Below, piece by piece: positions 7,067 to 40,766 of a DNA stretch of 64,000 nucleotides. The number at the start of each line of letters is the position of its first letter. Positions within the stretch are counted from its first letter, which is position 1. Location of the stretch: NCBI RefSeq assembly GCF_964204645.1, contig NC_134029.1, positions 9,016,850 to 9,080,849 on the forward strand. The letters are read 5' to 3'. Source of the stretch: Tubulanus polymorphus. Its lineage: Eukaryota > Animalia > Nemertea. The notes beneath the pieces were generated by a model, which did no database searches, had not been told where the DNA came from, and worked only from the letters and a program-made list of their open reading frames with translations. The position numbers and the translations under genes are program-made.

Positions 7067-7072
7067 TATAGA
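7067..7072 (+). repeat. Left 6-bp target-site duplication (TATAGA) of the Polinton
   Basis: TATAGA immediately precedes AGTAATAG at 7073 and recurs at 23254-23259. Confidence 0.95.
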
Positions 7073-7229
7073 AGTAATAGGGATAATGGGCTTTCAAGCC
7101 AAAGGTCGAACGGTCGAGCTCGTAAAAAATGAAAAACATAAAAATAATTACAATTTCTACTTGAATTACTCGCAAAACTCATAAAAATGAAAAATAAATT
7201 CTCACACGCTCGAATTTATTTTTCATTTT
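7073..7229 (+). repeat. Left terminal inverted repeat of the Polinton
   Basis: Reverse complement of 23096-23253. Only one A-run indel and one substitution seen. Confidence 0.93.
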
Positions 7230-7391
7230 TTACTCGCTAAAAAGTAACGAGTAATTAATGAGTTGTTTGAATTGATATTTTAAACATATTTCAATATTCA
7301 TATTTGTATGAGTTAGATTTTTAAACATAAAAGTGTGAGTAAAGTGTGAGTGAAATAATTCATATTTAAAACATTGAATATTTATATTTGA

Positions 7392-8039
7392 ATGAGTTTT
7401 AATAAAAATTTTGTTATAAAAATGAAGAAAGAAGAAGAAGAACCCAACTTTAAAATCGAAATCAATGAAACCAATAAATCATTTTCACAGTTTTACATTA
7501 AAAATTATATTTCAGCAACAAATTTAGTGTCCGCAAGGTATTATAAAATTGATAACATAACTATGATTAATCAAATATCATCAAATGAAACATATTTAAT
7601 TACTGAACTAGTAGATACTTTTGATAATGGCGTTAAAAATCCTAAAATATTCAATACAGTTTTAAATTTTAAAGGAACTTTAGATGAAAACATAATTAAT
7701 ATTCTTAAAACTCCTTTCAATGAAAGAAATGATGATATAATACTTTCAAAAGATTACAATGATTTGATTAACTTAAGAATTGAAAAAAGACAATTATTTT
7801 ATTTCAATTTTGATAATAAACAAATTATCTATAATGAAAATTCATCAAATATTGGAATTCAATGTGAATTAGATAATAATAATTCTTATAAAGATATTGG
7901 AATTCAATGTAATTTTGATGATGAAATTGTTGCGCCTAAATATAATCCTAATGAAAGCGTTTTATGTAATTGTGGAAAATATTATACTCGCAGCAATAAA
8001 TCACACCATCTTAAATCAAAATATCATAACACATATTAA
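7392..8039 (+). pseudogene. Probable N-terminal part of the pPolB ORF with a C-terminal zinc-finger-like motif, truncated at a deletion junction
   Basis: First ORF inside the left TIR. Ends in CNCGKYYTRSNKSHHLKSKYH and abuts the polymerase C-terminal fragment out of frame at ~8030. Assignment to pPolB is positional inference. Confidence 0.55.
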
Positions 8040-8551
8040 AGATAAAAACTGATAACATAACAGATGATTTAAAAACATTAAAACACCATTTTGATTTTAG
8101 TAATTATCCAAAAAATCATGAATTGTTTAGCAATGATAATAAAAAAGTTCCCGGTAAATTCAAAGATGAATTAGGTGGTGAAGAAATGATAGAGTTCATA
8201 GGTATTAGATCTAAAATGTATAGTTATAAAACTAAAACTCATGAATCAAAGAAATTGAAAGGAATTACCAAAAGCGTTGTTGAAAAGAATATTCATTTCA
8301 AAGATTACATCAATTGTATATTTAATGAAGAAGTTAGAAAACATAAGATGAAATGTTTAAGATCTGAAGATCATGAAATGTATATTGAAGAGATAGAGAA
8401 GATAAGTCTAAACCCATTTGATGATAAAAGATATATTTTAGATGATGGAATCCACACAGTCGCCTATGGTTGCAATTTAGATGAATATATAAAATTCAAA
8501 AGAGAAGAAACAAAAGAAAATGAGATTATGAAAAGGATTCTAGCGTGTTAA
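8030..8551 (+). pseudogene. polB: Protein-primed family B DNA polymerase (pPolB), C-terminal fragment only
   Basis: Open frame from 8030 reads ILKIKTDNITDDLK..FDFSNYPKNH..NKKVPGKFKDE..EFIGIRSKMYSY..KLKGI..FDDKRYILDDGIHTVAYG, the Polinton pPolB segment that directly follows YxDTDS. The exonuclease and motifs A, B and C are absent. Confidence 0.92.
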
Positions 8552-8579
8552 TCAATTTCAATAAAAATTTGTATAATAA

Positions 8580-8921
8580 ATGGAGAGTAAACAAGTACAC
8601 AGTGAATTCTTAGATAGAATTAAAGATACTTCAAGCGTCAAATCTGTAGATTATAAATTTAAAAAACTAACTGAGTTAACAATTCACAAGAAATATTTAA
8701 TTACTAACATTGAAACAATTACTAATAAATATGGAGATAAATTAGTAATTCATTTAGAATATGAAGGATTAAAAGGAAATAAATATAAATTCAGAACTTA
8801 TTTACCAGATAGATTTCATAGATTATCAAGTGAAGATTTAGAAGAATTATGTTCTGGAGATTTCTATTTCGTATACAAAGGTAAGAATGAAAAAGGGCAC
8901 CATGAAATAGATTTCGAATAA
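8580..8921 (+). CDS. Polinton hypothetical protein, 113 aa (possible OB-fold/ssDNA-binding)
   Basis: Intact ORF with TAAATG start directly after pPolB. The KYG..LV and YLPDRF pattern looks like Polinton-associated small proteins. The fold is a guess. Confidence 0.65.
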   Translation: MESKQVHSEFLDRIKDTSSVKSVDYKFKKLTELTIHKKYLITNIETITNKYGDKLVIHLEYEGLKGNKYKFRTYLPDRFHRLSSEDLEELCSGDFYFVYKGKNEKGHHEIDFE

Positions 8922-8938
8922 GAAAATATGTAAAATAA

Positions 8939-9694
8939 ATGGTGGAATTAAAAGAATACAGAATATTTGTTGATTCTAGAAAACTTACAAATTATAAATC
9001 ACATAATTTATTAGTACAATTAGATAGAGAATTCAAAAATTGTGTTGATTTAAAATTAGTTAATATAAGTTTATGTAATTCTTTTTACAATGTATCGGAT
9101 AAAACTTTTGAACATAGAGGGTTTATGATTTATATGAGAAATAAAGATAAATGGTTTCATATATTTTTAAAACCAGGATTATATAATTTAGAATCATTAG
9201 CGCAGGAAATTAATAGAAGAGCTCGGTTGAAAATCGGGGGCACTTCTGTATTTGAAATTAAATTTAATAAAATTGATAGTACTAATAAAATTAAAATAAA
9301 GGTATCTAATGAACAACATAAATTTATGGTAAACAAACCAATGGCTAAAATGTTAGGAATTAAACCGCTTACAGTTACTGGAAACGCAGAAGGCAGCTCA
9401 AATATAATACCTTTTACACACTTTTATATTTATTGCAATTTAATCGAGCCTACAAAAACTTTCGAAGCAACTAAAGAAACAATTTGTAATTCAAGTATAC
9501 TAAATATTTTACCGCTAAAAAATGTTAAACAATTTGGAACTCAAATAAATTATAATTTAACAGAATGTGATTTTAAACCTTGCATTCCTAAATTTAATAA
9601 TTTTAAATTAGAAATAAGAAATCATAATGGATACTTAATTGATTTGAATAACTTTCCTGTAATTTATGAATTAGTTATAAGATGTAAAGAGTAA
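8939..9694 (+). CDS. Minor capsid protein (penton, single jelly-roll)
   Basis: 251 aa with IFVDS, NSFYNV, LKPGLYNLESLAQEIN, FYIYCNLIE, SSILNILP and LEIRNHNGYLIDLNN..VIYELVIR, the typical Polinton penton pattern. Confidence 0.85.
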   Translation: MVELKEYRIFVDSRKLTNYKSHNLLVQLDREFKNCVDLKLVNISLCNSFYNVSDKTFEHRGFMIYMRNKDKWFHIFLKPGLYNLESLAQEINRRARLKIGGTSVFEIKFNKIDSTNKIKIKVSNEQHKFMVNKPMAKMLGIKPLTVTGNAEGSSNIIPFTHFYIYCNLIEPTKTFEATKETICNSSILNILPLKNVKQFGTQINYNLTECDFKPCIPKFNNFKLEIRNHNGYLIDLNNFPVIYELVIRCKE

Positions 9695-9710
9695 TTTTTC
9701 ACTTATATAA

Positions 9711-9950
9711 ATGAATATAACTGTTGGACCGAGTATATGTTTTGGGTTTGATTTTAAACGTGAGAAAGAAATGAAATTTAACATTAATGATGTAATAACA
9801 CATATCAAAAATATTGCATTTTCTAATGAAACAACATTTGAGTATGAAACAACAATAGATAAAGAAACTTTAAATGTAGAAAAGATTACTGAGTCTTTAA
9901 GATTTTACGAATTAGATGAAGATTTTATCATCGATATATTAAAAAAATAA
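9711..9950 (+). CDS. Polinton hypothetical protein, 79 aa
   Basis: ORF in the co-oriented gene run, with T-tract/TAAATG start. Confidence 0.55.
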   Translation: MNITVGPSICFGFDFKREKEMKFNINDVITHIKNIAFSNETTFEYETTIDKETLNVEKITESLRFYELDEDFIIDILKK

Positions 9951-10057
9951 TAATTGAAATATATGATAATCATAAAACTAGTAATGAAATAAATGTTGAA
10001 TTAATCATAAATAAGATAACTAAATATTTTGATGATAGTAATTTTTTTGATTAATAA

Positions 10058-10279
10058 ATGAGTGATAATAAGTGGATAATAACTGGATTATATAATGGAG
10101 CATTACTATCAGTTGGAACGGTTGGTTATTCAATGGTATTAAAAAAAGTATTCAAAATGGGAAGTGTTAATGTTGATAGATTTGATATAAATGATATTTT
10201 AAAATTAACATTAGCAGTTACTTTATCTAATTTAACAATTGATTATTTGGAAAAACAAAAATATATTCCTCCCATATAA
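10058..10279 (+). CDS. Small hydrophobic/amphipathic protein, 73 aa
   Basis: T-tract/TAAATG start; hydrophobic helices GALLSVGTVGYSMVL and ILKLTLAVTLSNL. Confidence 0.7.
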   Translation: MSDNKWIITGLYNGALLSVGTVGYSMVLKKVFKMGSVNVDRFDINDILKLTLAVTLSNLTIDYLEKQKYIPPI

Positions 10280-10302
10280 ATGCATAATTTTTTGCTAAAT
10301 AA

Positions 10303-10725
10303 ATGGCTTCTGCAATTATAACTATTATAGGATCGGCAATCGTTAACGCTTTAGCATTTACTGGTGGTGGATATTTATTTAAACACATTGATAAAAATAG
10401 TTCATTAGGAGAACAAAGAAGACATAACTTAGCGTTAGAGAAATACAATAAAGCTGCAGAAGAATATAGAGAAAAGAGGCAAAACTATATGGATTACATC
10501 AATAAAGAATTATATGATCAGAAGATTTCACATAGAGATTTTCAATCAGTTGATGATGCAATGAGTTTATATAACGCAGTAACAAATAAAGAAAAATTAC
10601 ATCTATACAAACCTAAATTATCAGATTATTATACCCCAAGTAAAGAACAACAGAAATATGAAATAATTTGGATTTTAGGTGGAACAGTTATTGTTATATT
10701 TGTTGCTTATAAGTTTACTAATTAG
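10303..10725 (+). CDS. Predicted membrane protein, 140 aa
   Basis: N-terminal hydrophobic segment MASAIITIIGSAIVNALAFTGGGYLF, a coiled-coil-like middle and a C-terminal TM (IIWILGGTVIVIFVAY). Confidence 0.8.
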   Translation: MASAIITIIGSAIVNALAFTGGGYLFKHIDKNSSLGEQRRHNLALEKYNKAAEEYREKRQNYMDYINKELYDQKISHRDFQSVDDAMSLYNAVTNKEKLHLYKPKLSDYYTPSKEQQKYEIIWILGGTVIVIFVAYKFTN

Positions 10726-10744
10726 TAATTTTTTTTCTAAATAA

Positions 10745-11179
10745 ATGGAAGATAAAGTTGATAGTATTGATATTATTCCTCATGATATAAATAAAACTAA
10801 ATTAAAAACATATTTAGAAAAACAAATATTAGAATTTGAAAGTGACTTAAAGATAAAAAAGAAAAAATATTTAAAAAGTAAAATTATATATTATCTGATT
10901 ATAAGTGGTTCGGTTACAATTAGTTCTGTAATAACATTTCTAGCAATATTCAGTCCATTAACACCTTTAGCTATATCAATTGGTGTATTAGGATTAAGTT
11001 CAAGTGTTTTAACTGGTATAAGTTCAAAATTAAATATAAAAAGTAATAAAGAAAAAATTAAAACTAATATAAAAGAAATTAATAAATTAAAGAACACACT
11101 AGATTATATAATAAGTTTAAATGGCCATATAACAGTTGAAGAACAAGATAAATTATTAAAAGAATTAATAAATTATTAA
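10745..11179 (+). CDS. Predicted two-TM hairpin membrane protein, 144 aa
   Basis: IIYYLIISGSVTISSVITFLAIFSPLTPLAISIGVLGLSSSVLTGI flanked by Lys-rich coiled segments. Confidence 0.78.
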   Translation: MEDKVDSIDIIPHDINKTKLKTYLEKQILEFESDLKIKKKKYLKSKIIYYLIISGSVTISSVITFLAIFSPLTPLAISIGVLGLSSSVLTGISSKLNIKSNKEKIKTNIKEINKLKNTLDYIISLNGHITVEEQDKLLKELINY

Positions 11180-11195
11180 TTTTTTAATTATATAA

Positions 11196-12584
11196 ATGGT
11201 AGATAGTTTTCCAAAAGCTTTCCAATATAATAAATCAATTAAATATAATATTCCAGCAATAGATTTTAATAAAGATATTACATATAGAAATGAAGTTTTA
11301 GATTCATTAACTAATTTAGAAATTTATGTTACTGAAACTAATAATTTTAATGCAAAGATGGAAAATATATTTCATGTATATTTAATTAATTTTAAAAAAT
11401 TGAAAGATGAAAAACAATGGTTATTAAAATCTAATATGAAGTATTGGCAAAATCAATTAAATTTTGCTGTTTATTGTGCAACAACAGGATGTGGAATTAG
11501 TTGGAATGATCATTTGAATAATTCTAAATATAAATTAATTCAAAGTTTATTTAGATTTCATACATACTTTCAAATCAGAATAATATTAAATGAATTAGAG
11601 TGCGCTTTACCAGGATCTAGATATTTTAAAGAATTAGATAATAATATTAATTTATCAAAGTTTTATAAGATTTGTAATGAATTTAATATAGATATAAATA
11701 ATTCTGATTTTAGAACAAAAACTGGAACAATAAGATCACTTCCTTGCCCTAAAAAGATTGCAGAATATTGTGCACTTCCCATACCATCTAATAGTTTTTA
11801 TAATATCTATAATAAAAAATTAGGTTATGGTAAAATAGAAACAAAGGATTTAGAAACATTAAATTTCAATAAATTACCAAAATTTTATGATAATTTAAAA
11901 CAAGAAAACAATAATGGTTGGGTTTATTTCATTTTAGAAAATAGTGAAGGTTTTACTAAATCAGGTATAGAAAGAATAAATCAATCTATTAGAACTTATT
12001 TGATTTGTATTCTAGGATCACAAGTTGAAACAAGATCACCGATAATTGGAAATTTGAATACATCATTCGATACACAAAAACAATTTAAAGTTTTATTTGA
12101 AGATTCAATTCATAATGATAAAAATAGATCGATTCCAGAAAACATTATAAGATATCAAAATTATTTAGATAAATCTCATGTAAGACTTAATTATTGTATA
12201 GGCCCTAATCTATTAATTATTTCTAATGATTTAGTATTAAAGATGGGAAACATAATTGGTTATAATAATCTAATTAAAACCGCAACAATAAATAATTCAT
12301 TTGGATTGAATGATATAAATAAAAAGATTATTACTGCTCCAAAATTAATGGAAGGTGAAAAAAATAAAAAACACATTCAATCAACTGAAACTAAAACTAA
12401 GAATATTAAATTAAATAATGATTCTAAAATAAAAGATTATAATACATCAGAAGATATAAAAACTGATAAAATTCAACATGATATAATTAAACTAAATGAT
12501 GATAATAAATCCCATGAAAATACTAAATTAGCTATAACTTGTATAGGAATTGTAATCGGAGGAATATTATATTTTAAATTTTAA
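11196..12584 (+). CDS. Uncharacterised 462-aa protein with C-terminal membrane anchor
   Basis: Long intact ORF with YWQNQLNFAVYCATTGCGIS and FRFHTYFQIR blocks; terminal TM LAITCIGIVIGGILYF. Confidence 0.82.
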   Translation: MVDSFPKAFQYNKSIKYNIPAIDFNKDITYRNEVLDSLTNLEIYVTETNNFNAKMENIFHVYLINFKKLKDEKQWLLKSNMKYWQNQLNFAVYCATTGCGISWNDHLNNSKYKLIQSLFRFHTYFQIRIILNELECALPGSRYFKELDNNINLSKFYKICNEFNIDINNSDFRTKTGTIRSLPCPKKIAEYCALPIPSNSFYNIYNKKLGYGKIETKDLETLNFNKLPKFYDNLKQENNNGWVYFILENSEGFTKSGIERINQSIRTYLICILGSQVETRSPIIGNLNTSFDTQKQFKVLFEDSIHNDKNRSIPENIIRYQNYLDKSHVRLNYCIGPNLLIISNDLVLKMGNIIGYNNLIKTATINNSFGLNDINKKIITAPKLMEGEKNKKHIQSTETKTKNIKLNNDSKIKDYNTSEDIKTDKIQHDIIKLNDDNKSHENTKLAITCIGIVIGGILYFKF

Positions 12585-12600
12585 TTTTTTTATTATGTAA

Positions 12601-14330
12601 ATGGCAGAAGGTGTAGAAGATATTCCATTTGATGACATGGGAAATAATAATGAAGGATATATTGATGATGATTATAATGATACAGAAACTAATATTGATA
12701 ATGATGATGAATCAGCATATAATACTAATTTAGGTGAAGATGATGATTATGATGATGATGATCCCGAATTACGTGAAAGATTAAATAAATATTTAAAAGC
12801 TCCTGAAATTGGTAGAATTTCAACTAGAAGAGAAAGAAAAGAATTTATGGAACTATTAGTAAAACAACAAGAAAAAAATCCTGATAAACCTATGGAATTA
12901 TCTAAAATGAAATCTAGAGTAACAGATACAATTGTTAACGAATTATTACCAACAGTTGTAATAGATGAAATTGATTCAGAAGGTGTTGTAGAACAAATTT
13001 TTAAAGATGACCCATATTTCACAAATAATTTAGAATTTAAAAATGATTCGTGGTATTATAATGTTAATTTAAATAACAAAATTGTATCAATTCAATTATC
13101 TAAAATGGGTCAAGAAAATATTTATGAACCTGAAATGCGAGCAACATCTACAATTGAAGGTTCAAAAGGTGGTAGAGAATTTCTTAGAATTATATGGAAT
13201 GCACTCGATAGAATAAATAAAAAAGAACCAATTCCTAATATTGATATAAACAAATATTCACCATTTAAAAATCCATTTAAAAATCCAAATCCTACTGATT
13301 TTGATCCAGAAATGGAAGAGAATAGAAATCGATTAGATAGATTGAGATCTTCAACACCCGAAACATCGAGAAGAGACACTCAACCAATTGATAATTATTC
13401 AAGTCAATTACAATTAGAAAAACAAATTGATAGATTAAGAGATTCAGAAGAACTGATGAATAGTATATCAGATACATCTGGTTCTGAAACTGGAATAAAT
13501 CGACTGCAATATTTACTAGAAAAAGGATTTCTTAATTTAACTGATGAAGAATTAGAAGCATTTCCTGAACAAATACGTAGAGAAATTAAAGGTATACAAG
13601 TATCAGCTGATGAAATTGCTAATATTAAGATGAGATTTTCTAAAATAACCATGTTAGAAAAAGAATTAGTTAATGTAGATGAAGAATTAAAACAATTAGA
13701 ATTAAATAGAGATCATCAAGTAGTTTATGAAGCTGATTATGAAAGCAGAAAGTTAGCTTTAGTAAAAGAAATAGATGATTTAGAATATAACAAAATATTA
13801 TATATATATATATAAAATTACAAAAAGAAGAAAGAGATATATTATTAAAATCATATGATCTTAATCATATTAAAAAATTAAAAGTTATTTTTAAAGATTT
13901 GTTGATTAAACCAGATTCTGAAATATCATTAAAAGACAGAATAAGATTATTATTTAAATTAGAAGGTATAACAATTCTTTCAATTGTAACAGCTGTAACT
14001 ATGGTATTTACAACAATTGGTTTAGCAATATCAAATGCTTTGAAATCTACTCCTACTCCCACTCCCAATAAACCGGATAAACCTCCAGGTAATAATTCTA
14101 TACAAGATAAAGTTAAGGATGGTTTAAAGAAATTAGCAAAATATTTATGGGAACTATCAAAGAAATCTGCTGCAGCTTTACCAGGAGTTATTGCTTCAAT
14201 TGTTGGTTTTATATTGAAATCTGCAGGAAACATTATTAACTTTGCTGCTGAACATATTATTTTATTTTTAATTACAGTTGTAAGTGCTATTATTTTTGGG
14301 TTAGTGAATATGATATCAAAAAATAAATAA
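12601..14330 (+). pseudogene. Large acidic/coiled-coil multi-TM protein (~575 aa), frameshifted at a (TA)n run
   Basis: ORF 12601-13815 ends inside the TA run at ~13799-13814, and the 13899-14330 frame is open back through that run. Removing one TA joins them. TMs: GITILSIVTAVTMVFTTIGLAI and IILFLITVVSAIIFGLV. Confidence 0.8.
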
Positions 14331-14352
14331 TTAATTTTTTTTTGTTAAATAA

Positions 14353-15600
14353 ATGAGTGGGAGTTATATAAGTCCTTCGAAGAATCATAGAATATCTAAT
14401 GCTATTAAAGCAGAAAGATCACATCATATAATTACTCATAACCCTTCAAATATTAATCCCGATGAAACTTTATATGTTAGAATTCCTAGATTAACACAAA
14501 ATACTTTTTATGTTCCAAATAGTATTTATTTATCAGCTCATATAAAAGTAATCGGTAATAATAATAATTATGTTGTTGATAATGTTGGAAGATATTTGAT
14601 TAAAAAGTTAACAATAAAGATTGGTCCGGAAACGGTTTTCTCATTAGATGATTATAATTTATTTATGCATTATAAAGATTTATGGTTAACTAAAGAAAAT
14701 AGAAATAATATGATATTTCAGGGTATTCAATCAGAAAACCAAAATAAATTAAGATCAGAAGCTAATAGCGCAATATTAACTAATGATGTAGATAAATTGA
14801 TAAAAAGTATATATGGAAGTAAATATAAAATTCCATTAGACTTTGAATTGATAAATAATAATGCACCTTTATATAAATACGCAATTCAAGAAGACGTTAT
14901 ATTTGAAATAACATTTGCTCCTGTAAATGAAATTGTATTATCTAGCGTTGTTAAAGATATGAGTTATAAATTATCGAATATATGTTTAGAATATGATACA
15001 GTAACTGATGAAAATATTTCAAGTATAATTCAAACCCAATATAATCAAGGATTTTCATTATTATATGATTATATTGATAAATTTAAAACTGTAACTATTA
15101 ATGCAAATGATGAAATAATTAATGAGAATATTAACTTTCCTAGAAGATCTATTAAAGGTATATTAATATTTTTTACCATTGGAACGTATACTAATGGTGC
15201 AATAAATGTTGACAATTATTATAATCCTGAAATAACAAAAGTAGAAATAACTATCGAAGGAATAGCAAATAAAATATTTTGTCAAGGAATGAGAATGATT
15301 CTTCAATGGCCAGAAATTAGAAAACATTTTATGAATGAAAAAATAAAATCATCTGAAGATTGTAACATTAATCAAATTGATTATTATACCGGTAATAAAT
15401 ATGCATTATGGTTAGATTTTAGAACAACTGAAGATAATTCATTACATGGTTCTGGGAAAAAACTACAAAATACAAAAGATGGAATACAATTATTCATGAC
15501 AAAGAAAAAGGGAATCAAAAATTTTAAAATGCACATTTATATTATATCTGACGCGCAATTAAATATTGTAAATTCTCAATTAGATAGTGTTATGTATTAA
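14353..15600 (+). CDS. Major capsid protein (double jelly-roll)
   Basis: 415-aa beta-rich ORF with NPSNINPDETLYVRIP, LIKKLTIKIG, YKIPLDF, YKLSNICLEYD, RSIKGILIFF and YALWLDFR blocks. Size and pattern match Polinton/PLV MCPs. Confidence 0.85.
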   Translation: MSGSYISPSKNHRISNAIKAERSHHIITHNPSNINPDETLYVRIPRLTQNTFYVPNSIYLSAHIKVIGNNNNYVVDNVGRYLIKKLTIKIGPETVFSLDDYNLFMHYKDLWLTKENRNNMIFQGIQSENQNKLRSEANSAILTNDVDKLIKSIYGSKYKIPLDFELINNNAPLYKYAIQEDVIFEITFAPVNEIVLSSVVKDMSYKLSNICLEYDTVTDENISSIIQTQYNQGFSLLYDYIDKFKTVTINANDEIINENINFPRRSIKGILIFFTIGTYTNGAINVDNYYNPEITKVEITIEGIANKIFCQGMRMILQWPEIRKHFMNEKIKSSEDCNINQIDYYTGNKYALWLDFRTTEDNSLHGSGKKLQNTKDGIQLFMTKKKGIKNFKMHIYIISDAQLNIVNSQLDSVMY

Positions 15601-15632
15601 AATTTTAACTTTAATAAAAATATATATAATAA

Positions 15633-16880
15633 ATGGAAGGTGGAATATATGAAATACAATCTCCAAGTGAAATGATATCAGATATATATTATATATTACC
15701 TTATGATGAATACAGTAAGTATTTTGGAGATTACTTTAATCAATTCAAATATAGAATAAGTAAAATAGATAAGAATATTGAAACTAAAATAGAAGATAAT
15801 ATTGAACCTAAAATAGAAGATAAGAATGAAACTAAAATAGAAGATAAGAATGATATTGAATATAAAATAGAAGATAATATTGAACCTAAAATAGAAGATA
15901 AGAATGATATTGAATATAAAATAGAAGATAAGAATGATATTGAATATAAAATAGAAGATGTAACAGGATATGTATCTTATAATATACCCTCTACAACATA
16001 TGATATTGAATCAAAAAAGATAAATGAAAAATATTGTGACGTATGTAAACAGTATAAAAGTTATAAGAATTGGGCAACTCATCTTAATTCACTCAAGCAT
16101 AAGAAAAATAAGAATAAGATTTTAAATGAATTGAATAATGATAGTGAAATTGATAATGATAATGTTAAAGAAGATAAATATTGTGAAGAATGTGATAAAT
16201 ATATAAGTCGTAGTAATTTTTCAAAGCATAAATTAACACAGATACATTTGGATAATATAGAAAGAAATATATGTGAAAAGTGTAATGTTGTTGTATTACC
16301 TAAAGATAGAATTAAACATGATAATTCTTTTGAACATACAATAAAAGCTGCTGATTTAAATATCCTTTATAGAGTACCAAGTGTATTTTTTGATATCGAA
16401 AATAATGATCATAGGAAATTATATAGATCAATTTTTATCGATTATGTAAGAAATAATCCAAAACAAGTATTATCAGATCTAAAAACTCGTCGGATGATTA
16501 TAAAAATTGATCTAAATAATTATTGGGGTATATATTATTTCATAAAATTTAAAAATATAGATTTTTTAACAGAATTGAAAAAAGTTGCTGCTAATGATAA
16601 TTATGATAATAAAAGTGATAACTTTGATGAAATAATTCAATACTACAGTTATGAAGATTTTTCACAGGATGTTATAAATAAAATAAGAAATGAAGCAAAA
16701 AATAAATATAAAAATATAAGTGGAGACAAATTAAACCAATATATTTATTTAACTTATGAATTCTGGGTTAAGGGTTTGAATGGTAATGGTTATCATTTTA
16801 AACTATTAGGTGAAAGAAGATCAGAAGAATTAAGAGATGCATGGAGCAAATTGTTTTCAGAATTAGAATCAGAAAAGTAA
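15633..16880 (+). CDS. Triple C2H2 (U1/matrin-like) zinc-finger protein with internal KIEDKN repeats, 415 aa
   Basis: Fingers CDVC..H..H, CEEC..H..H and CEKC..H..H; tandem 21-27-nt coding repeats at ~15760-15960. Confidence 0.78.
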   Translation: MEGGIYEIQSPSEMISDIYYILPYDEYSKYFGDYFNQFKYRISKIDKNIETKIEDNIEPKIEDKNETKIEDKNDIEYKIEDNIEPKIEDKNDIEYKIEDKNDIEYKIEDVTGYVSYNIPSTTYDIESKKINEKYCDVCKQYKSYKNWATHLNSLKHKKNKNKILNELNNDSEIDNDNVKEDKYCEECDKYISRSNFSKHKLTQIHLDNIERNICEKCNVVVLPKDRIKHDNSFEHTIKAADLNILYRVPSVFFDIENNDHRKLYRSIFIDYVRNNPKQVLSDLKTRRMIIKIDLNNYWGIYYFIKFKNIDFLTELKKVAANDNYDNKSDNFDEIIQYYSYEDFSQDVINKIRNEAKNKYKNISGDKLNQYIYLTYEFWVKGLNGNGYHFKLLGERRSEELRDAWSKLFSELESEK

Positions 16881-16907
16881 TTTAAAATATGAATATAATA
16901 CCCTTTG

Positions 16908-17472
16908 TGTCTTTATTGTCTTTAGTAGTTTAGTACTTTTAGTACATAAAGAATAAATCTTTATTTTATTAGTAGTGAATAAAATTATTTTTAAAACTAC
17001 TAAACTACTAAAGACAATAAAGACATAAATATATATATAACACTGTTTCAATAATTATATTTATTCATCTGATGGATTTTATATATTACTGTTTCAATAA
17101 TTAAATCTATTTATCACACATATTTATTATATATATCATAGATTTATCATTTATAAAAATTATTTATATATTTTATTTTTCTAAGTACTAATTAAATAAA
17201 GATTTATTCTTTATGTACTAAAAGTACTAAAAGTACTAAAGATAATAAAGACATAACAAAACATATATAGATGTAATAAATATCATAGATTTATTTATCT
17301 CACATATTTATTATATATATTTGATTCAGTAATGATAAATCTATGTGTGTTTGTTATGTCTTTATTATCTTTAGTAGTTTAGTAGTTCTATTTTATTTTA
17401 TTCACTACTAATAAAATAAAGATTTATTCTTTATGTACTAAAAGTACTAAACTACTAAAGATAATAAAGACA
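16908..17472. repeat. Nested inverted repeats between the convergent gene blocks
   Basis: Unit 16908-17025 has 28-bp self-complementary arms (TGTCTTTATTGTCTTTAGTAGTTTAGTA). 17357-17472 is an inverted copy of the whole unit, and a partial copy lies at ~17194-17260. Confidence 0.85.
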
Positions 17473-17530
17473 TTAGGGGAGGTATATAATACATATCTAA
17501 TACATATCTAATACATAGGTATACAAATAG

Positions 17531-18145
17531 TTATTTTATAAATTTATATTCATATGGAAATTGTAATCTCATAAGTAATTTGGAACCTTTATTATTCTTT
17601 AATTTATTCATATATTCATCATGTAATTCAGTAGGTATAATTTGATTTTCTTCTAATGATTGTTGCATAGATTTTCTATCTTTGTTGTAGAATAAAACTA
17701 GAAATCTTATATTCTCTCTAAAGTCTTTCACAATTGAATTATATTTCTGATTTAAAACCCATGTTGTTATCCCAAAATGTCTACCAGAGAAAGCTAAATA
17801 ACATAACTCACTTTCTCTAATTTTAGAATCATGTACATTTGCGCAATCATCAATAATAAATAATGTATTAGATCCTTTATAAATATCTAATGCAATTTTT
17901 ATACAATTATCTAAATTATCTTTTACTGTTTTAGAATTTAATATAATAAACTTTTTATCTTTAAAAACTATATCTCTATTATACGTTTCATTCATTTCAT
18001 AAGTTGGGCAGAATAATATTATATTATCAAAATGATTCTGATAAATAGTTTCTAATAAATCTAATATGAAGTGTGTTTTACTACAATTTGTAACTCCAGT
18101 AACTAACATATTATGTGGTTCAAATATAAACAAATCTTTATTCAT
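17531..18145 (-). CDS. FtsK/HerA (A32-like) genome-packaging ATPase with Walker A variant GVTNCSKT
   Basis: hhhhGxxxxSKT, Walker B LFIIDD, and SGRHFGITTWVLNQ (GRH...Q motif). Confidence 0.9.
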   Translation of the reverse strand: MNKDLFIFEPHNMLVTGVTNCSKTHFILDLLETIYQNHFDNIILFCPTYEMNETYNRDIVFKDKKFIILNSKTVKDNLDNCIKIALDIYKGSNTLFIIDDCANVHDSKIRESELCYLAFSGRHFGITTWVLNQKYNSIVKDFRENIRFLVLFYNKDRKSMQQSLEENQIIPTELHDEYMNKLKNNKGSKLLMRLQFPYEYKFIK

Positions 18146-19223
18146 TTATTCTTTTAATTTTACTAGATAAAATCCATTCATTAAATTTATCATCTTATCC
18201 TTTATATTTCACCAAAGAATACTTTTTTCCTTTAAGAGTTTTAGTTTTCAATACCTTTTCTATTTTGTATTCTATTTCATCTGGATTTGGTACTAATGAT
18301 AATTCTTGTTCATAAAAATAACCTAATATTTCTTCATCTTTTAAATCAAACAATTTATAAACAAATGGTTTAGTTAATATTATCTTTTTAATTTTAAATA
18401 TTTCTTCTGTAAAATTAGGGGTATAACCTTTATAAAATGTTTTTCGATATTTAGAAATTCTAACATGTTGTCCTATTTTGAATTTAGGTTCTCCGAAATC
18501 ATGTGTAACAAATGCACCATATAAATTATTCCAAACTATTTCTGAATTTTCTTCTTTTCTAGCTTGTATAGGTTTCATATTTATAGAACTATGTTTAGAA
18601 TTATTATAACCTTTAACTAAATCATCTAATACATCGATATATTTATATGTTTCATTAGCGGTGAAATATTTCCACATTCTAGTTTTCAATGTTTTATTAA
18701 ATCTTTCTATAACAGATGCTTTTTTATCTGAATGTGTTGAAAAATATTCTACATCGTTATCAGTTAATAGTTTTTTAAAATGTTTGTTATAAAATTCTTT
18801 ACCTTCATCAAATTGTATTTTATCTGGGATAGCTTCTTTAAATATTAATTTGAAAGAATTTGTAACTTCTATACCAGTTTTATTTTTAATCGGGATACTC
18901 CATGCGTATCTACTGAATATATCTATAACATTTAGTATCCAAAAATATCCTTTGTTATATTCTTCTAAGTTTTTCATATCAATTAAATCAGCTTGCCATT
19001 GTTGGTCAATATATGAAACCATTACTTTTCTTGTTAAATATTTTTTATCCATTTTCTTGTGGATTTGATATGTTGGTTGATTTTGTAACCATGATTTTAA
19101 TTCACTTTATTTTATATTACTATTATCAGATTTAATTTTATCCCATAATTCTGAAACGTTAGAATATGATACTTCACTTTCTGGGTTGTAATATAACGCT
19201 CTTAAATATTGTTCTTTTTTCAT
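18138..19223 (-). pseudogene. int: Retroviral-type (rve) integrase with C-terminal chromodomain and two in-frame TAA stops
   Basis: Frame reads MKKEQYLRALYYNP...NIK*SELKSWLQ...WQADLIDM...IDIFSRYAW...FDEGKEF...IERFNKTLK...YKIEKVL..KYKG*DDKFNEW. Stops are at 19107-19109 and 18195-18197. Confidence 0.93.
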
Positions 19224-19229
19224 CTTATT

Positions 19230-19655
19230 TTAATCCATTAATAATAATCTTGGTTTATTTTCAATGACTTTATCATTTGACTTATTTTCTGGTATGATAG
19301 GTTTACTGTCTGTACACGGATAACTAAGTTTCCGATTGTCATTGGAATCATCTTTATCGTAAGATTTGAATTTTGATTTATATATTACACCGGATAATAT
19401 AATAACTGTTACTAATCCAATTGTAATATATAATTTATAATTACTTCCAGCATTAGAAGAATTAGATGGATTATCATTTGAATCAATACCACCGTGTGGG
19501 TGCTGTACGGCACCATCAGATAAAGTCTGTGATTCATTTATATCAGTTAATTTCTTTTTCTTAGCTTTTTTTAATTCTGATGATCTTTTACCTAATTCTC
19601 TTGCCCATTTAATTTGTTTCTCGGATCTAGCCTTTTTCTTAACTCCATCACTCAT
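19230..19655 (-). CDS. Single-TM protein with basic N-terminus, 141 aa
   Basis: TAAATG start, Lys/Arg-rich head, TM LYITIGLVTVIILSGVIY. Confidence 0.75.
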   Translation of the reverse strand: MSDGVKKKARSEKQIKWARELGKRSSELKKAKKKKLTDINESQTLSDGAVQHPHGGIDSNDNPSNSSNAGSNYKLYITIGLVTVIILSGVIYKSKFKSYDKDDSNDNRKLSYPCTDSKPIIPENKSNDKVIENKPRLLLMD

Positions 19656-19664
19656 TTATTTTAG

Positions 19665-20231
19665 TTAATTTTGTTCTGATTCATTTTCTGTTTCACTGTT
19701 TGGTTGTAGTACATCTGTTTCGTTCTTACCTGATTTATATTCCATAGGTTTGATGTTCGAAAATGTAATGACACCAGTAGAAATTAATGTCATAACCGAT
19801 CCTAATTGAAATGAAGCATAACCGACCCATTTTTGTAATTCAGTCATAACTAAATAGTCATTTTTCAAATCATTATATAATTTATTTTCATCATCAATTG
19901 GTATTAACTGGTTACATAATTTTGAATAACATTTGACAATACCATCTGAAATAGAATCATTTATTCTAGCTAATCGAGCTTCTTCATAAATCTTAAAATA
20001 TTTTATTACTTTATCGGGTTTCATAGCATCTAATTCTTGAAAAGTAATAGTCTTAGTTAAAAACTCTTTAGTTTTTCCACCGGCAATCAATAGTTCTATA
20101 TGGTGCTTACAATATAAATAGTATTCATAATCTATAGAATTAGAAACAACTGTATCTTTATTATCACTAATACCTAAATCATCTAATGTCTTTTCAATAT
20201 CAATATTATTCTTACTCAATTTCTTTGACAT
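19665..20231 (-). CDS. Polinton hypothetical protein with a hydrophobic C-proximal segment, 188 aa
   Basis: T-tract/TAAATG start; segment WVGYASFQLGSVMTLISTGVITF. Confidence 0.75.
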   Translation of the reverse strand: MSKKLSKNNIDIEKTLDDLGISDNKDTVVSNSIDYEYYLYCKHHIELLIAGGKTKEFLTKTITFQELDAMKPDKVIKYFKIYEEARLARINDSISDGIVKCYSKLCNQLIPIDDENKLYNDLKNDYLVMTELQKWVGYASFQLGSVMTLISTGVITFSNIKPMEYKSGKNETDVLQPNSETENESEQN

Positions 20232-20645
20232 TTATATTAGAGGAAAAAAGCAAAAAAAATATTATAAGTATTCTTCAAATGATACTAGTATCTCTTTAGG
20301 TTAATACTAAATTGACTAGGTTAGTTAAAGTTAAAGAATTTCTATTCAAATCTATTCAAAATCTATTCAATCTAATGTCAATTAGAATTACCAAAAGAAA
20401 ATATTGAAAAATATAATAGAATTCACTAGCTAGTTGAAGTTATTGTTTTTTTATTATATTTTATTTAAATTAGGATTTAGATTATCTCACTACTATTGTC
20501 TATCTATTAGGAGCAGTAATTATAACTGTCCAGATAAGTCATTTCGGATCCTCGATAATAAATCCTCAAACTGAAAATAAATTCAAAGAAACGACTGGTG
20601 GAAATCTTATTTCATAAACACATATATTTATTATACAAATTTTAG

Positions 20646-21006
20646 CGATCAATAGTAGAACAATGGAGAACAATAGAAATGCGGTTCAATCGGACCGGTT
20701 ATTGCGCAATACACAGTTATATTCTTATTCTGTAAACTACAACATTCAAACATAGAAATGTAACCAATCAATATTGAGCAGCTGTTTCAGTCAACAACGA
20801 TCAATAATAGAACAATGGAGAACAATAGAAATGCGGTCCAATAGGACCGGTTATTGCGCAATACACAGTTAACAGTAAACAATACAATACAGAACAACCG
20901 CCGCCATTAACAACGATCAATAATAGAACAATGGAGAACAATAGAAATGCGGTTCAATAGGACCGGTTATTGCGCAATATTTAGTTAACAGTAAACAATA
21001 CAATAT
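20646..21006. repeat. Three direct repeats (~75-100 bp) in the non-coding region, putative enhancer
   Basis: CGATCAATARTAGAACAATGGAGAACAATAGAAATGCGGT...GGACCGGTTATTGCGCAATA at 20646, 20798 and 20914. Confidence 0.85.
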
Positions 21007-21075
21007 TAAAACAGATATATACAATCGAGATTACATTTTTGATATCTATATTACAAAGACCTTCAGTGTTATAAT

Positions 21076-21542
21076 TTATAATTTTGTCCAGAATTCTTTA
21101 ATTACTGGATTGTTTCCAATCATTTCTTCAATTTCTGGTAAATATCTGACTACTTCACTAAATGCTAATCCTAATATTTTGAATTTTTCATATTTTATTA
21201 ATCTACCTACTCTTCTCAGTTTTCTTTCAAAACCGGCATTGATATCTCCACTCATTTTCTTAGTTTTCGATTATTTGAGTCCCAACAGCAATTTAAGTCG
21301 CGTTGCTGGTAATTTTGGTAATTGTAGTTCGCGCGGTAATTGTTTATTATGTATTACATCACTCAGAATTTTCACCATTTCTTGATGATAGTCCAAATGT
21401 TCTTATAATTTTGTGAAGTTTGTTCGTCAATTACGAGAGTTTCATCCTCCATTTCTATTGATTCCTGTGTTTCACTATCCAGTAGCAATCGTTCCTCATC
21501 CGTTGGTTGGCTTAGAATTTCTGGTTGATCTTTGTGTTCCAT
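21076..21542 (-). pseudogene. Disrupted Polinton ORF (frameshift and nonsense codons)
   Basis: MEHKDQPEILSQ... from 21542 shifts into a frame ..HQEMVKILSD..LGLK*SKTKKMSG..KEFWTKL*. Confidence 0.45.
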
Positions 21543-21869
21543 TTTAATCTAAAAGATATCGTGAAAATGAATTACTGTACTTAAATATGTTTAAAGGTTT
21601 CCCTACTTCATAATAACTACAAAAAACGGTACTTACATTTAGATTTAGAACTGTAAACTGTGTTTTGAGAGAGAATATCCAATACGTACTATGTATGTGA
21701 AAGTTGATTTCTAACTGCCGACGTGGCGCACGTTCAACCAAACTAATTATTTCTGCACAGATGTTCTTTATGATGAAGTTAATTAATTCTTTAGAATTGA
21801 AAACAAGATATATTTGGCAACATATGTTTTAGTAGTAAGCAAAAGCTATGTATTATATACATACAAAGC

Positions 21870-22574
21870 TCAAATAGAATTGCCAGCTTTCTTACCACTG
21901 ATCAAAACCTCAGAATGCGGTTGATTCTGTGAAATACTATTCCATAATTCAACAAATGTCTTTGCTTTATCCAGTTGATCTAAATATAACTGTAAATCTA
22001 GTTTATTGGATTTAATAATGTTTTCCTTCTTTTCTAAAGGTCTTAGATTCTTCCAATTCCAAATAAGTTTTTTATTGTATTCATCATTCATGTTAAATTT
22101 AGATATTGGTAACACATGATCAATATGAAAGTATTCACCATAATTATCTATATTCATTTTATCATCGAATTGATATATTATCCATGATTTTAAGAATTCA
22201 TCTGAACAACCCAATAAATTAGATAGTGTTTTTGAACGCGTTTCTTTGTTGAATAATTTTGATACTTTAGATCTCAAACATTGTTTCATTTTAAAATTAA
22301 AATCTGTTTGATATCTTTCTTTATGATAATTTCTATTATACACTTTAATATGTTCTAAATGATTTTCTTTCCATTGCTTATTTTCATCTTTGCGTGTTTC
22401 GGTATTATTTCTATAATTTTGTTTGTCACTTAGTTTACTACAAGTTTTACAATAACTTTGCTTACCATCTTTCTGAGTTTTATAATTATAATATTCCGAG
22501 AGTTGTTTATTTATTTTACATTTAGAACATTTCTTATTGTTTATATTTATAGCTTGTGATTGTTCCGGCTCCAT
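21870..22574 (-). CDS. HNH endonuclease with N-terminal C4 zinc ribbon (giant-virus/phage type)
   Basis: KCSKC..CKTC, LLGCS..FLKSWI..QF, NYGEYFHIDHVLP and NWKNLRPL..KENIIKSNK. Confidence 0.85.
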   Translation of the reverse strand: MEPEQSQAININNKKCSKCKINKQLSEYYNYKTQKDGKQSYCKTCSKLSDKQNYRNNTETRKDENKQWKENHLEHIKVYNRNYHKERYQTDFNFKMKQCLRSKVSKLFNKETRSKTLSNLLGCSDEFLKSWIIYQFDDKMNIDNYGEYFHIDHVLPISKFNMNDEYNKKLIWNWKNLRPLEKKENIIKSNKLDLQLYLDQLDKAKTFVELWNSISQNQPHSEVLISGKKAGNSI

Positions 22575-22651
22575 TTATTATACATATTTTTATTAAAATT
22601 GATTAACATTTTAGAATCCTCTTCCATTTCTTCGACCAACGTCATCCTTTT

Positions 22652-22903
22652 TCATTCCTCGCTGCTTTTGATAAGTTGTTTCGATTCCTTGATATCAAAT
22701 TCCTCAACGTATTGTTCATTATTTGGATCAGTGTTCCATAATTCAATAAATTTCTTTCCTTTTGTTAACTGTTCTGAATATAACTGTAAATATTCTAATT
22801 TCAATTTATTCTCTAAATGTGTTTTAGTTTTATTGTGTCTTGCTTTTTGAGACTTATCTATATTTATCTTACATGTTGGACAGTAGTACTTATTTGCTTC
22901 CAT
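22652..22903 (-). CDS. Small C2H2 zinc-finger protein, 83 aa
   Basis: YCPTCKINIDKSQKARHNKTKTH; preceded by the same upstream motif as 22574, 8580 and 15633. Confidence 0.7.
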   Translation of the reverse strand: MEANKYYCPTCKINIDKSQKARHNKTKTHLENKLKLEYLQLYSEQLTKGKKFIELWNTDPNNEQYVEEFDIKESKQLIKSSEE

Positions 22904-22985
22904 TTTAATACTAAATTTTTTATTAAAATTGATTTTAGAAGTTCAATGATTTAAATGTTATTCATATATATATGAATATTTTAAG

Positions 22986-23253
22986 AGTAATAGGGATAAT
23001 GGGCTTTCAAGCTAAAGGTTGAACGGGCGGGTGAGTAAAAATGAAAAAACATAAAAATAATAACAATTTCTACTTGAATTAGGAGTGAAACTCATAAAAT
23101 GAAAAATAAATTCGAGCGTGTGAGAATTTATTTTTCATTTTTATGAGTTTTGCGAGTAATTCAAGTAGAAATTGTTATTATTTTTATGTTTTTTCATTTT
23201 TTACGAGCTCGACCGTTCGACCTTTGGCTTGAAAGCCCATTATCCCTATTACT
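22986..23253. repeat. 268-bp imperfect terminal palindrome that includes the right TIR (23096-23253)
   Basis: 22986 restarts AGTAATAGGGATAATGGGCTTTCAAG. The arms fold around the loop GAGCGTGTGA at ~23114-23123. Confidence 0.92.
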
Positions 23254-23259
23254 TATAGA
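23254..23259 (+). repeat. Right 6-bp target-site duplication (TATAGA)
   Basis: Follows ...CCCTATTACT and is identical to 7067-7072. Confidence 0.95.

Positions 23260-33939: not shown

Positions 33940-40766
<6,827 letters not shown>

What the first reader, a model, noticed from the sequence alone, without database searches (positions are those of the whole stretch)
7073..23253. Polinton-like endogenous virus with about seven membrane proteins and no maturation protease
Seen: TSD, TIRs, pPolB remnant, penton, MCP, packaging ATPase and integrase. Five consecutive hydrophobic/TM ORFs sit between penton and MCP (10058-14330), and two more sit upstream of the integrase (19230-20231). No adenain/Ulp1-like Cys protease is recognisable. 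Established: canonical Polintons usually carry that protease and are modelled as non-enveloped icosahedral virions, whereas tectiviruses such as PRD1 have an internal membrane built from small TM proteins. Inference: a distinct animal Polinton/PLV lineage with a lipid-containing virion.
Basis: partly seen in the sequence, partly recalled or inferred. Interest (0 to 1): 0.88.

Follow-up and report, generated by a model that had tools for sequence, protein, structure and literature searches.

The report
Poxvirus-promoter Polinton-like virus with membrane genes
A multi-copy, broken virus-like element in an animal genome carries a conserved block of predicted membrane-protein genes beside its capsid gene, and nearly all its genes start with a signal matching poxvirus promoters, so it likely parasitises a pox-like helper virus and may build a membrane-containing particle.

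Summary
The element is real: 6-bp target duplication, AG..CT ends, inverted repeats, a double jelly-roll capsid protein (MCP), an A32 ATPase, an integrase and a polymerase remnant. It is multi-copy, and this copy is broken. The lineage and the missing protease are not new: the MCP matches Nematostella Polinton-3_NV, listed without protease in 2014 and placed among Polinton-like viruses (PLVs), which lack that protease.

The membrane block holds up with corrections. It is five genes, one of them frameshifted; two of the seven candidates are only weakly hydrophobic and one is SLATT-like. The block is syntenic and under purifying selection in a relative with 74% MCP identity.

New here: 14 of 17 gene starts read TAAATG, against 28 of 584 other ATGs. 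The membrane block and MCP share the vaccinia late signature (T-run, T at -10); the penton candidate and several accessory genes show the intermediate-like A-run. I infer a helper-dependent, cytoplasmic, virophage-like cycle with the membrane genes as late morphogenesis genes. An internal-membrane virion is plausible but unshown. The scan's earlier notes held nothing on this element.

The parts
7067..7072 (+). left target-site duplication TATAGA
7073..7229 (.). left terminal inverted repeat, begins AGTA
7392..8039 (+). ORF, 215 aa, zinc-finger-like C-terminus (by eye); possibly an N-terminal replication-module gene
   Evidence: no significant family
8030..8551 (+). C-terminal remnant of protein-primed polymerase B; the upstream part is missing in this copy
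   Evidence: 344 reads run on unlike the window before 8031
8580..8921 (+). conserved 113-aa ORF, A-run + TAAATG start
8939..9694 (+). candidate penton/minor capsid protein, A-run + TAAATG start
   Evidence: fold not tested
9711..9950 (+). small acidic ORF, late-type start
10058..10279 (+). TM1: 73 aa, weakly hydrophobic, 90% identical in L001, dN/dS 0.07, late-type start
10303..10725 (+). TM2: 140 aa, hydrophobic N- and C-terminal segments, dN/dS 0.14, late-type start
10745..11179 (+). TM3: 144 aa two-TM hairpin, SLATT-like (four SLATT models, all below cut-off), dN/dS 0.24, late-type start
11196..12584 (+). TM4: 462 aa, confidently folded mostly helical domain, long linker, conserved C-terminal hydrophobic tail; large unnamed family
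12601..14330 (+). TM5: one gene (variable acidic N-part, coiled-coil-like middle, three hydrophobic segments), frame broken in the (TA)n run at about 13799-13814
14353..15600 (+). [quoted passage not shown]
15633..16880 (+). variable accessory ORF with zinc-finger-like motifs, A-run + TAAATG start; low read depth in its 3' half
17531..18145 (-). A32-type packaging ATPase
18146..19223 (-). RVE integrase, interrupted by two in-frame stops (about 19107-19109 and 18195-18197)
   Evidence: one 359-362 aa ORF in L002 and L004
19230..19655 (-). TM6: 141 aa, basic N-part, one clear TM segment; fast-evolving (dN/dS 0.67)
19665..20231 (-). TM7: 188 aa, weakly hydrophobic 26-residue uncharged run, dN/dS 0.19-0.24, late-type start; distant match also in L007
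21870..22574 (-). endonuclease VII/HNH-like ORF
   Evidence: phrog_1035 E=3.8e-18
22652..22903 (-). small zinc-finger ORF
22986..23253 (.). right end: 268-nt near-perfect palindrome that contains the right inverted repeat, ends TACT
   Evidence: z = -25
23254..23259 (+). right target-site duplication TATAGA

Best explanation
This is a broken, integrated copy of a multi-copy Polinton-like virus of the Polinton-3_NV type, without a detectable maturation protease, whose gene starts match poxvirus late and intermediate promoters, so it is likely transcribed by a co-infecting pox-like virus in a cytoplasmic factory, where its late-type membrane genes likely help build a lipid membrane under the capsid. 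Shown: ends, copy number, capsid fold, conserved gene block, purifying selection, start motifs in two classes. Inferred: the integrase keeps the element latent in the host genome; a helper's RNA polymerase and late factors read the TAAATG starts; polymerase B replicates the excised linear genome; TM1-TM5 and TM7 are made with the MCP and insert in ER-derived membranes with their soluble parts outside the ER lumen (no signal peptides); TM4 would tether capsid to membrane through a long linker; the A32 ATPase fills the particle, as in PRD1 and NCLDV particles. My odds per step: pox-like helper dependence about 0.65; membrane block acting in particle morphogenesis about 0.6; internal membrane specifically about 0.4.
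For: TAAATG at 14 of 17 starts versus 28 of 584 other ATGs (p=4e-15); 15 of 15, 7 of 7, 5 of 6 and 3 of 3 chosen starts in L001, L002, L004, L003. Among xAAATG sites T at -3 is at 41 of 42 starts versus 69 of 269 others, and the TAA is the upstream gene's stop in only 1 of 15 window genes, so this is neither an ordinary A-rich start context nor stop-start coupling. T at -10 in 16 of 16 starts of the block-plus-MCP and 4 of 4 TM7, versus 24 of 69 non-start TAAATG sites; penton candidate 0 of 2 and A-rich instead. This matches the vaccinia late and intermediate consensus as worded in PMC11980589. T5-N4-9-TAAATG: 25 matches versus 2.5 expected; 8 of the 9 distinct sites in the element are gene starts. 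Shared helper promoters are how dependence was argued for PgVV/Gezel, Sputnik and mavirus. Block order penton-TM1..TM5-MCP kept in L001; TM5-MCP adjacency in L002-L004; TM4 next to penton-like gene and MCP in distant L006. dN/dS 0.07-0.29 for TM1-TM4, TM5 C-part and TM7, like MCP 0.26. Read depth over TM1-TM3 (about 810-1050) equals or exceeds MCP (about 850) against about 15 in the right flank (run X6). TM4 tail hydrophobic in 86 of 120 and 44 of 74 relatives, N-terminal hydrophobic stretch in 0 of 74, control 0 of 112 MCPs. L001 carries a deoxynucleoside kinase.
Against: No helper virus, transcript or particle was observed. The element encodes no fusion or entry-complex homologue that I could detect, which an internal-membrane particle might need. 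No membrane gene matched a tectivirus, poxvirus or NCLDV membrane-protein family in Pfam, PHROGs or NCBIfam. TM3 is SLATT-like, a class proposed for abortive defence or egress in polisuviruses. The distant relative L006 has TAAATG at 0 of 3 starts yet keeps TM4, so the promoter type and the membrane block are not tied together across the lineage. The motif classes were defined after I saw them, and homologous genes in L001-L004 are not independent. The integrase start in this copy and in L004 lacks TAAATG. The motif could also suit another AT-rich cytoplasmic virus; ASFV uses a TATA late initiator. TM1 and TM7 are only weakly hydrophobic.
Confidence: 0.42

Rival explanations
1. Helper-dependent as above, but the capsid is a plain protein shell; the late membrane proteins act on cell or helper membranes: pores for egress, SLATT-type abortive defence against the helper, or anchors that let the particle or genome ride in the helper's membrane or occlusion body.
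For: TM3 matches four SLATT models below cut-off; holin-like and SLATT proteins are reported across polisuviruses with exactly these proposals (10.64898/2026.10.13.758929); PLVs occur in entomopoxvirus occlusion bodies (PMC11296320); late timing fits egress too.
Against: Five genes held in fixed order between penton candidate and MCP with MCP-like constraint is more than defence genes usually keep (inference); TM4 has thousands of relatives with a conserved tail.
Confidence: 0.3
2. The hydrophobic proteins are membrane-lytic entry proteins packed inside a protein-only capsid, like adenovirus protein VI or the PLA2X, GasderminX and cupiennin-like proteins of adintoviruses.
For: Canonical Polintons encode three classes of predicted membrane-active proteins (PMC8502044); TM1 and TM7 are amphipathic-looking rather than strongly hydrophobic; a three-helix part of TM4 has adenovirus capsid chains as its best but non-significant structural matches (Z 3.5-4.5 over 53-54 residues).
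Against: Those proteins are thought to be released by the adenain protease, undetected here; TM3, TM5 and the TM4 tail look like true membrane anchors; no PLA2 or gasdermin family hit.
Confidence: 0.12
3. The element is autonomous and nuclear; the start motif is an element-specific translation or host-polymerase signal in very AT-rich DNA that only resembles poxvirus promoters.
For: Element GC is 20-28%; it has an integrase and is multi-copy in the host genome; L006 lacks the motif; no AT-rich helper-independent Polinton was available as a negative control.
Against: T at -3 at 41 of 42 starts, where a purine is the usual eukaryotic preference (established knowledge); two upstream classes that sort by gene function and reproduce the vaccinia -10 T rule; no room for a TATA box to act on these genes at that distance.
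Confidence: 0.16

Closest known systems
Polinton-3_NV of Nematostella vectensis (chimeric animal element with PLV-type MCP; PMC4028283, PMC4642659)
   Same: MCP of similar length (412 vs 415 aa) carrying 24 of the 25 residues invariant in my alignment A1 (read by eye); ATPase present, protease absent, size 16.6 kb (Table S1); pPolB plus RVE integrase with a PLV-type MCP.
   Different: Table S1 lists no penton for Polinton-3_NV, here there is a candidate. The passages and supplements I read say nothing on membrane genes or promoters. I could not compare its other genes.
PLVs / Aquintoviricetes such as PgVV (Gezel-14T); animal members noted in Octocorallia, Hydrozoa, Bivalvia and corals
   Same: Minimal module MCP + mCP + A32 ATPase without protease; helper promoter sharing in PgVV.
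   Different: RVE integrase and pPolB rather than tyrosine recombinase/helicase; poxvirus-type instead of mimivirus-type motif; block of membrane genes.
Entomopoxvirus-associated PLVs (PMC11296320)
   Same: Animal host, proposed parasites of poxviruses.
   Different: They encode the adenovirus-type protease and, in three of four, a phospholipase; the main text has 0 hits for promoter, TAAAT or membrane.
Canonical Maverick-Polintons / adintoviruses (Polintoviricetes)
   Same: pPolB, RVE integrase, TIRs, 6-bp duplication, AG..CT ends, A32 ATPase.
   Different: Different MCP lineage, no adenain, none of PLA2X/GasderminX detected.
Tectiviruses (PRD1) and NCLDVs with inner membranes
   Same: Double jelly-roll MCP (closest folds iridovirus and PBCV-1), A32/P9-type ATPase, several small membrane proteins in the structural region.
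   Different: No detectable homology of any membrane protein; lipid in the particle not shown. A working analogy only.

Membership tests
Maverick-Polintons (Polintoviricetes groups 1/2) | pPolB and RVE integrase | tested here: met
   remnant pPolB and broken integrase
Maverick-Polintons (Polintoviricetes groups 1/2) | TIRs, 6-bp target duplication, AG..CT termini (recalled definition) | tested here: met
Maverick-Polintons (Polintoviricetes groups 1/2) | MCP inside the Maverick-Polinton MCP clade | tested here: not met
   indirect: MCP matches Polinton-3_NV, which published trees place with PLVs; my own tree had no named references
Maverick-Polintons (Polintoviricetes groups 1/2) | adenain/Ulp1-type maturation protease in this copy | tested here: not met
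   0 of 76 frames hit such a family at E<=1; no positive control
Polinton-3_NV-type animal PLV | PLV-type MCP combined with pPolB and RVE integrase | tested here: met
   24 of 25 invariant residues by eye
Polinton-3_NV-type animal PLV | protease absent from complete natural copies of this subfamily | tested here: inconclusive
   none seen among the ORFs of partial loci L001-L004 (Pfam scan of 13 L001 ORFs); no complete sister copy was retrievable, and reads show sister copies differ at 21659-22790
Aquintoviricetes / PLV | double jelly-roll MCP and A32 ATPase | tested here: met
Aquintoviricetes / PLV | [quoted passage not shown] | tested here: inconclusive
   candidate 8939-9694 conserved in L001, weak DUF5901, not folded
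Aquintoviricetes / PLV | placement by ATPase/MCP phylogeny with named references | not testable with these tools
   no reference sequences were retrievable
Virophage-like helper-dependent virus | promoter motifs shared with a large DNA virus | tested here: met
   against the consensus
Virophage-like helper-dependent virus | replication only on co-infection with the helper | not testable with these tools
   needs infection or transcriptome data; no RNA holder listed
Internal-membrane icosahedral viruses (tectivirus/NCLDV type) | homologues of known inner-membrane proteins | tested here: inconclusive
   no family or fold match; weak or missing matches exclude nothing
Internal-membrane icosahedral viruses (tectivirus/NCLDV type) | lipid bilayer under the capsid | not testable with these tools
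   needs particles

The most novel reading that the evidence does not exclude
A widespread animal lineage of integrating virophage-like viruses that runs on poxvirus-type intermediate/late transcription and builds a protease-free icosahedral particle with an inner membrane from its own six or seven membrane proteins: a tectivirus-like architecture among eukaryotic polisuviruses, and a genomic footprint of unseen pox-like viruses in invertebrates.
Probability: 0.3. Interest if true: 0.9.

Novelty: new variant of a known kind. Interest (0 to 1): 0.68.

Why it matters
No Maverick-Polinton virion has been observed, and whether animal Polinton-like elements need a helper is open. Poxvirus-type promoter classes give a cheap test (reporter assay, 5' poly(A) leaders) and predict a pox-like virus in the host. 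A conserved membrane-gene block in a protease-less lineage bears on whether the tectivirus inner membrane survived in small eukaryotic DNA viruses, as it did in NCLDVs. If the element hinders its helper, multi-copy insertions could act as inherited antiviral defence in animals, as proposed for protist virophages.

Tried and rejected
No whole genome is held. No relatives in viral contigs with MCP, A1, A2, ATPase or integrase or in phage records. No complete sister element was retrieved. TM4 as a hidden cysteine protease (conserved Cys94, Cys99, His106, His122): the model is mostly helical with His122 on a helix and gave no significant match in BFVD, PDB sequences or 48,161 chains (best Z 4.5); not supported, not excluded. 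A reticulon hint for TM5 (E=0.033) did not recur in four natural homologues; dropped. PulA_N1 hits on TM3 cover only its C-terminal helix; treated as spurious. MCP-TM4 complex prediction gave no answer (score 0.00, alignments not used). Atlas searches gave no usable hit. Searches of two MAGs holding distant fragments for TM5, TM2 and Peptidase_C5 were empty and uninformative. No RNA holder listed. The MCP tree (quick method, 42 rows, no named references) only shows a seven-member close clade. Poxvirus early terminators TTTTTNT and AATAAA counts were not informative. Earlier-finding look-ups returned nothing on this element.
Full report
The element and its limits. The stretch 7073-23253 drops to 20-28% GC (31% in one bin) against about 33-44% in most flanking bins. 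It begins AGTA, ends TACT and is flanked by TATAGA on both sides, with inverted repeats at 7073-7229 and 23096-23253. In raw DNA reads of a run with the same species label as the best holder (X6, not necessarily the same individual), depth is about 400-1050 over most of the element and about 15 in the right flank, and 879 and 886 reads have mutually unlike loose ends at exactly 7073 and 23253. It is therefore a multi-copy integrating family, tens of copies at 85% identity or more. Flanking exon-like fragments look animal (names recalled).

Hallmark genes. The 415-aa ORF 14353-15600 has 926 relatives among 3928 candidates and folds as a double jelly-roll closest to iridovirus and PBCV-1 capsid proteins. 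ATPase and integrase pass Pfam cut-offs. The penton is a candidate only. This copy is broken in three places: the polymerase keeps only its C-terminal part (aligned just downstream of a polB-like ORF in L007; 344 reads run on unlike the window before 8031); the integrase has two in-frame stops; and TM5 changes frame in a (TA)n run, which could also be an assembly slip.

Protease. None of 76 stop-to-stop frames of 45 aa or more hit an adenain or Ulp1 family at E up to 1, without a positive control. TM4, the only large unknown with conserved Cys and His, gave no protease-like match. No complete sister copy could be fetched, and sisters differ in the right accessory region, so absence in the subfamily is likely but not shown.

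Lineage. In the published alignment of Polinton-3_NV (PMC4028283 Fig S3) I found by eye 24 of the 25 residues invariant in my 38-sequence alignment; the miss is E321. Table S1 lists that element as MCP+, ATPase+, penton-, protease-. Its MCP groups with PgVV; Yutin et al. call such anemone elements chimeras of a PLV-type MCP with pPolB and RVE and state that PLVs lack the protease. Later papers place cnidarian, and some bivalve, elements outside the Maverick groups. The lineage and the protease loss are thus known.

Membrane block. The six ORFs at 10058-14330 are five genes. All five lie in the same order between penton candidate and MCP in L001 (MCP 74% identical); TM5-MCP adjacency recurs in L002-L004, TM6-TM7 in L001, L002 and L004, and a TM4 homologue lies beside a penton-like ORF and MCP in L006 at 36% MCP identity. 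dN/dS is 0.07-0.29 for TM1-TM4, the TM5 C-part and TM7, 0.67 for TM6 and 1.41 for the poorly aligned TM5 N-part, against 0.26 for MCP. Hydrophobicity is clear for TM2, TM3, TM5 and TM6, weak for TM1 and TM7. TM4 has 3388 relatives at E up to 0.001 among 50%-identity representatives; its tail is hydrophobic in 86 of 120 and in 44 of the 74 full-length among 144 further relatives, none of which has an N-terminal hydrophobic stretch. TM3 is SLATT-like below cut-off. Membrane-active, holin-like and SLATT genes are already reported in Polintons and PLVs in general; I did not find this block described, but supplements of the two 2026 preprints are closed and may list these gene groups.

Start signals. 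Of 19 ORFs examined I scored 17 starts, dropping the internal ATGs at 8186 and 14001: 14 read TAAATG, against 28 of 584 other ATGs. The misses are 7392 (whose eleventh codon is a Met behind an A-run), 19052 (internal to the broken integrase) and 22903 (TAAAATG). In relatives I scored the ORFs I judged to be genes (15 of 19 in L001, 7 of 11 in L002, 6 of 9 in L004, 3 of 7 in L003, 3 of 11 in L006): 15, 7, 5, 3 and 0 had TAAATG. T at -3 holds at 41 of 42 xAAATG starts versus 69 of 269 other sites, and the TAA is the upstream stop in 1 of 15 window genes. The block plus MCP has a T-run and T at -10 in 16 of 16 starts, TM7 in 4 of 4, background 24 of 69; the penton candidate (0 of 2), ATPase (1 of 4) and other genes (4 of 10) are mostly A-rich. 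PMC11980589 describes vaccinia late promoters as TAAAT(G) with a conserved T ten bases upstream and intermediate ones as TAAA lacking that T with an A-preferring upstream stretch. ASFV uses a TATA late initiator. The classes were defined after inspection and homologues are not independent. I found no report of such motifs in Polintons or PLVs (searches; zero hits for 'promoter' in the main texts).

How it most likely works. Shown: a multi-copy integrating element with capsid, packaging and integration genes, a conserved membrane-gene block, and poxvirus-type start motifs that put the block in the same class as the MCP. Inferred: latency in the host genome; transcription by a pox-like helper in the cytoplasm, on the same logic used for PgVV, Sputnik and mavirus; late synthesis of membrane proteins without signal peptides, which argues against an outer-envelope glycoprotein and fits proteins linking a membrane to a capsid; packaging by the A32 ATPase without proteolytic maturation. 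I put this whole reading at 0.42; membrane proteins acting in egress, defence or hitch-hiking with a naked capsid at 0.30; an autonomous nuclear element at 0.16; packaged lytic entry proteins at 0.12.

Papers seen. PMC4028283: passages, section 7, supplements 1 and 4. PMC4642659: passages, section 7. PMC8502044: parts 2-3 of 6. PMC11131425: passages, parts 2-3 of 9, section 8. 10.64898/2026.06.19.733378: passages, part 3 of 5. 10.64898/2026.10.13.758929: passages, part 3 of 5, first part of section 10. 10.1101/2022.07.28.501842: passages, section 9. PMC10120064, PMC11071308, PMC11296320, PMC11980589, PMC7163114: passages only. PRD1 and NCLDV inner-membrane biology, Kozak preference and Polinton end rules are recalled.

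Verdict. Observation partly confirmed; interpretation partly supported. A new variant of a known kind: known lineage, but an apparently undescribed conserved membrane module and poxvirus-type promoter classes that make helper dependence and virion architecture testable. Interest 0.68.

Noticed in passing
window 22986-23253: The right end is a 268-nt near-perfect palindrome (z = -25): the terminal sequence recurs inverted inside, so each end may fold into a hairpin; opposite-strand joints near 7168-7230 suggest the same at left ends of sister copies. It may bear on replication priming.
   Followed up: partly
window 16881-17530: Long inverted repeats between the two converging gene blocks (z = -23) with low read depth: a copy-specific foldback insertion or an expanded terminator.
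   Followed up: partly
window 20232-21869: 1.6 kb without an ATG-started ORF of 70 aa or more, with three 116-nt repeats at 20610-20993 and high read depth; possibly decayed accessory genes or a regulatory region.
   Followed up: no
L001 10340-10981: A sister element carries a deoxynucleoside kinase (dNK E=1.7e-31) with a late-type start.
   Followed up: partly
P0046 cluster, P0442, L006, L007: Relatives are filed under bacterial or archaeal names (Bartonella sp., Sulfurimonas sp., two MAGs), probably host DNA carried into those assemblies.
   Followed up: no
window 11196-12584, residues 267-328: Three adenovirus capsid chains are among the top structural matches (Z 4.5, 4.0, 3.5 over 53-54 residues); below significance; by recall these chains may be the vertex cement protein IIIa.
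   Followed up: partly
window 28890-32011, 35047-35487, 54993-55352: Exon-like fragments resembling a gamma-glutamyl transpeptidase and two Cys-loop anion-channel genes (names recalled, not tested).
   Followed up: no
window 38054-38449: A (TA)n array of about 400 bases.
   Followed up: no
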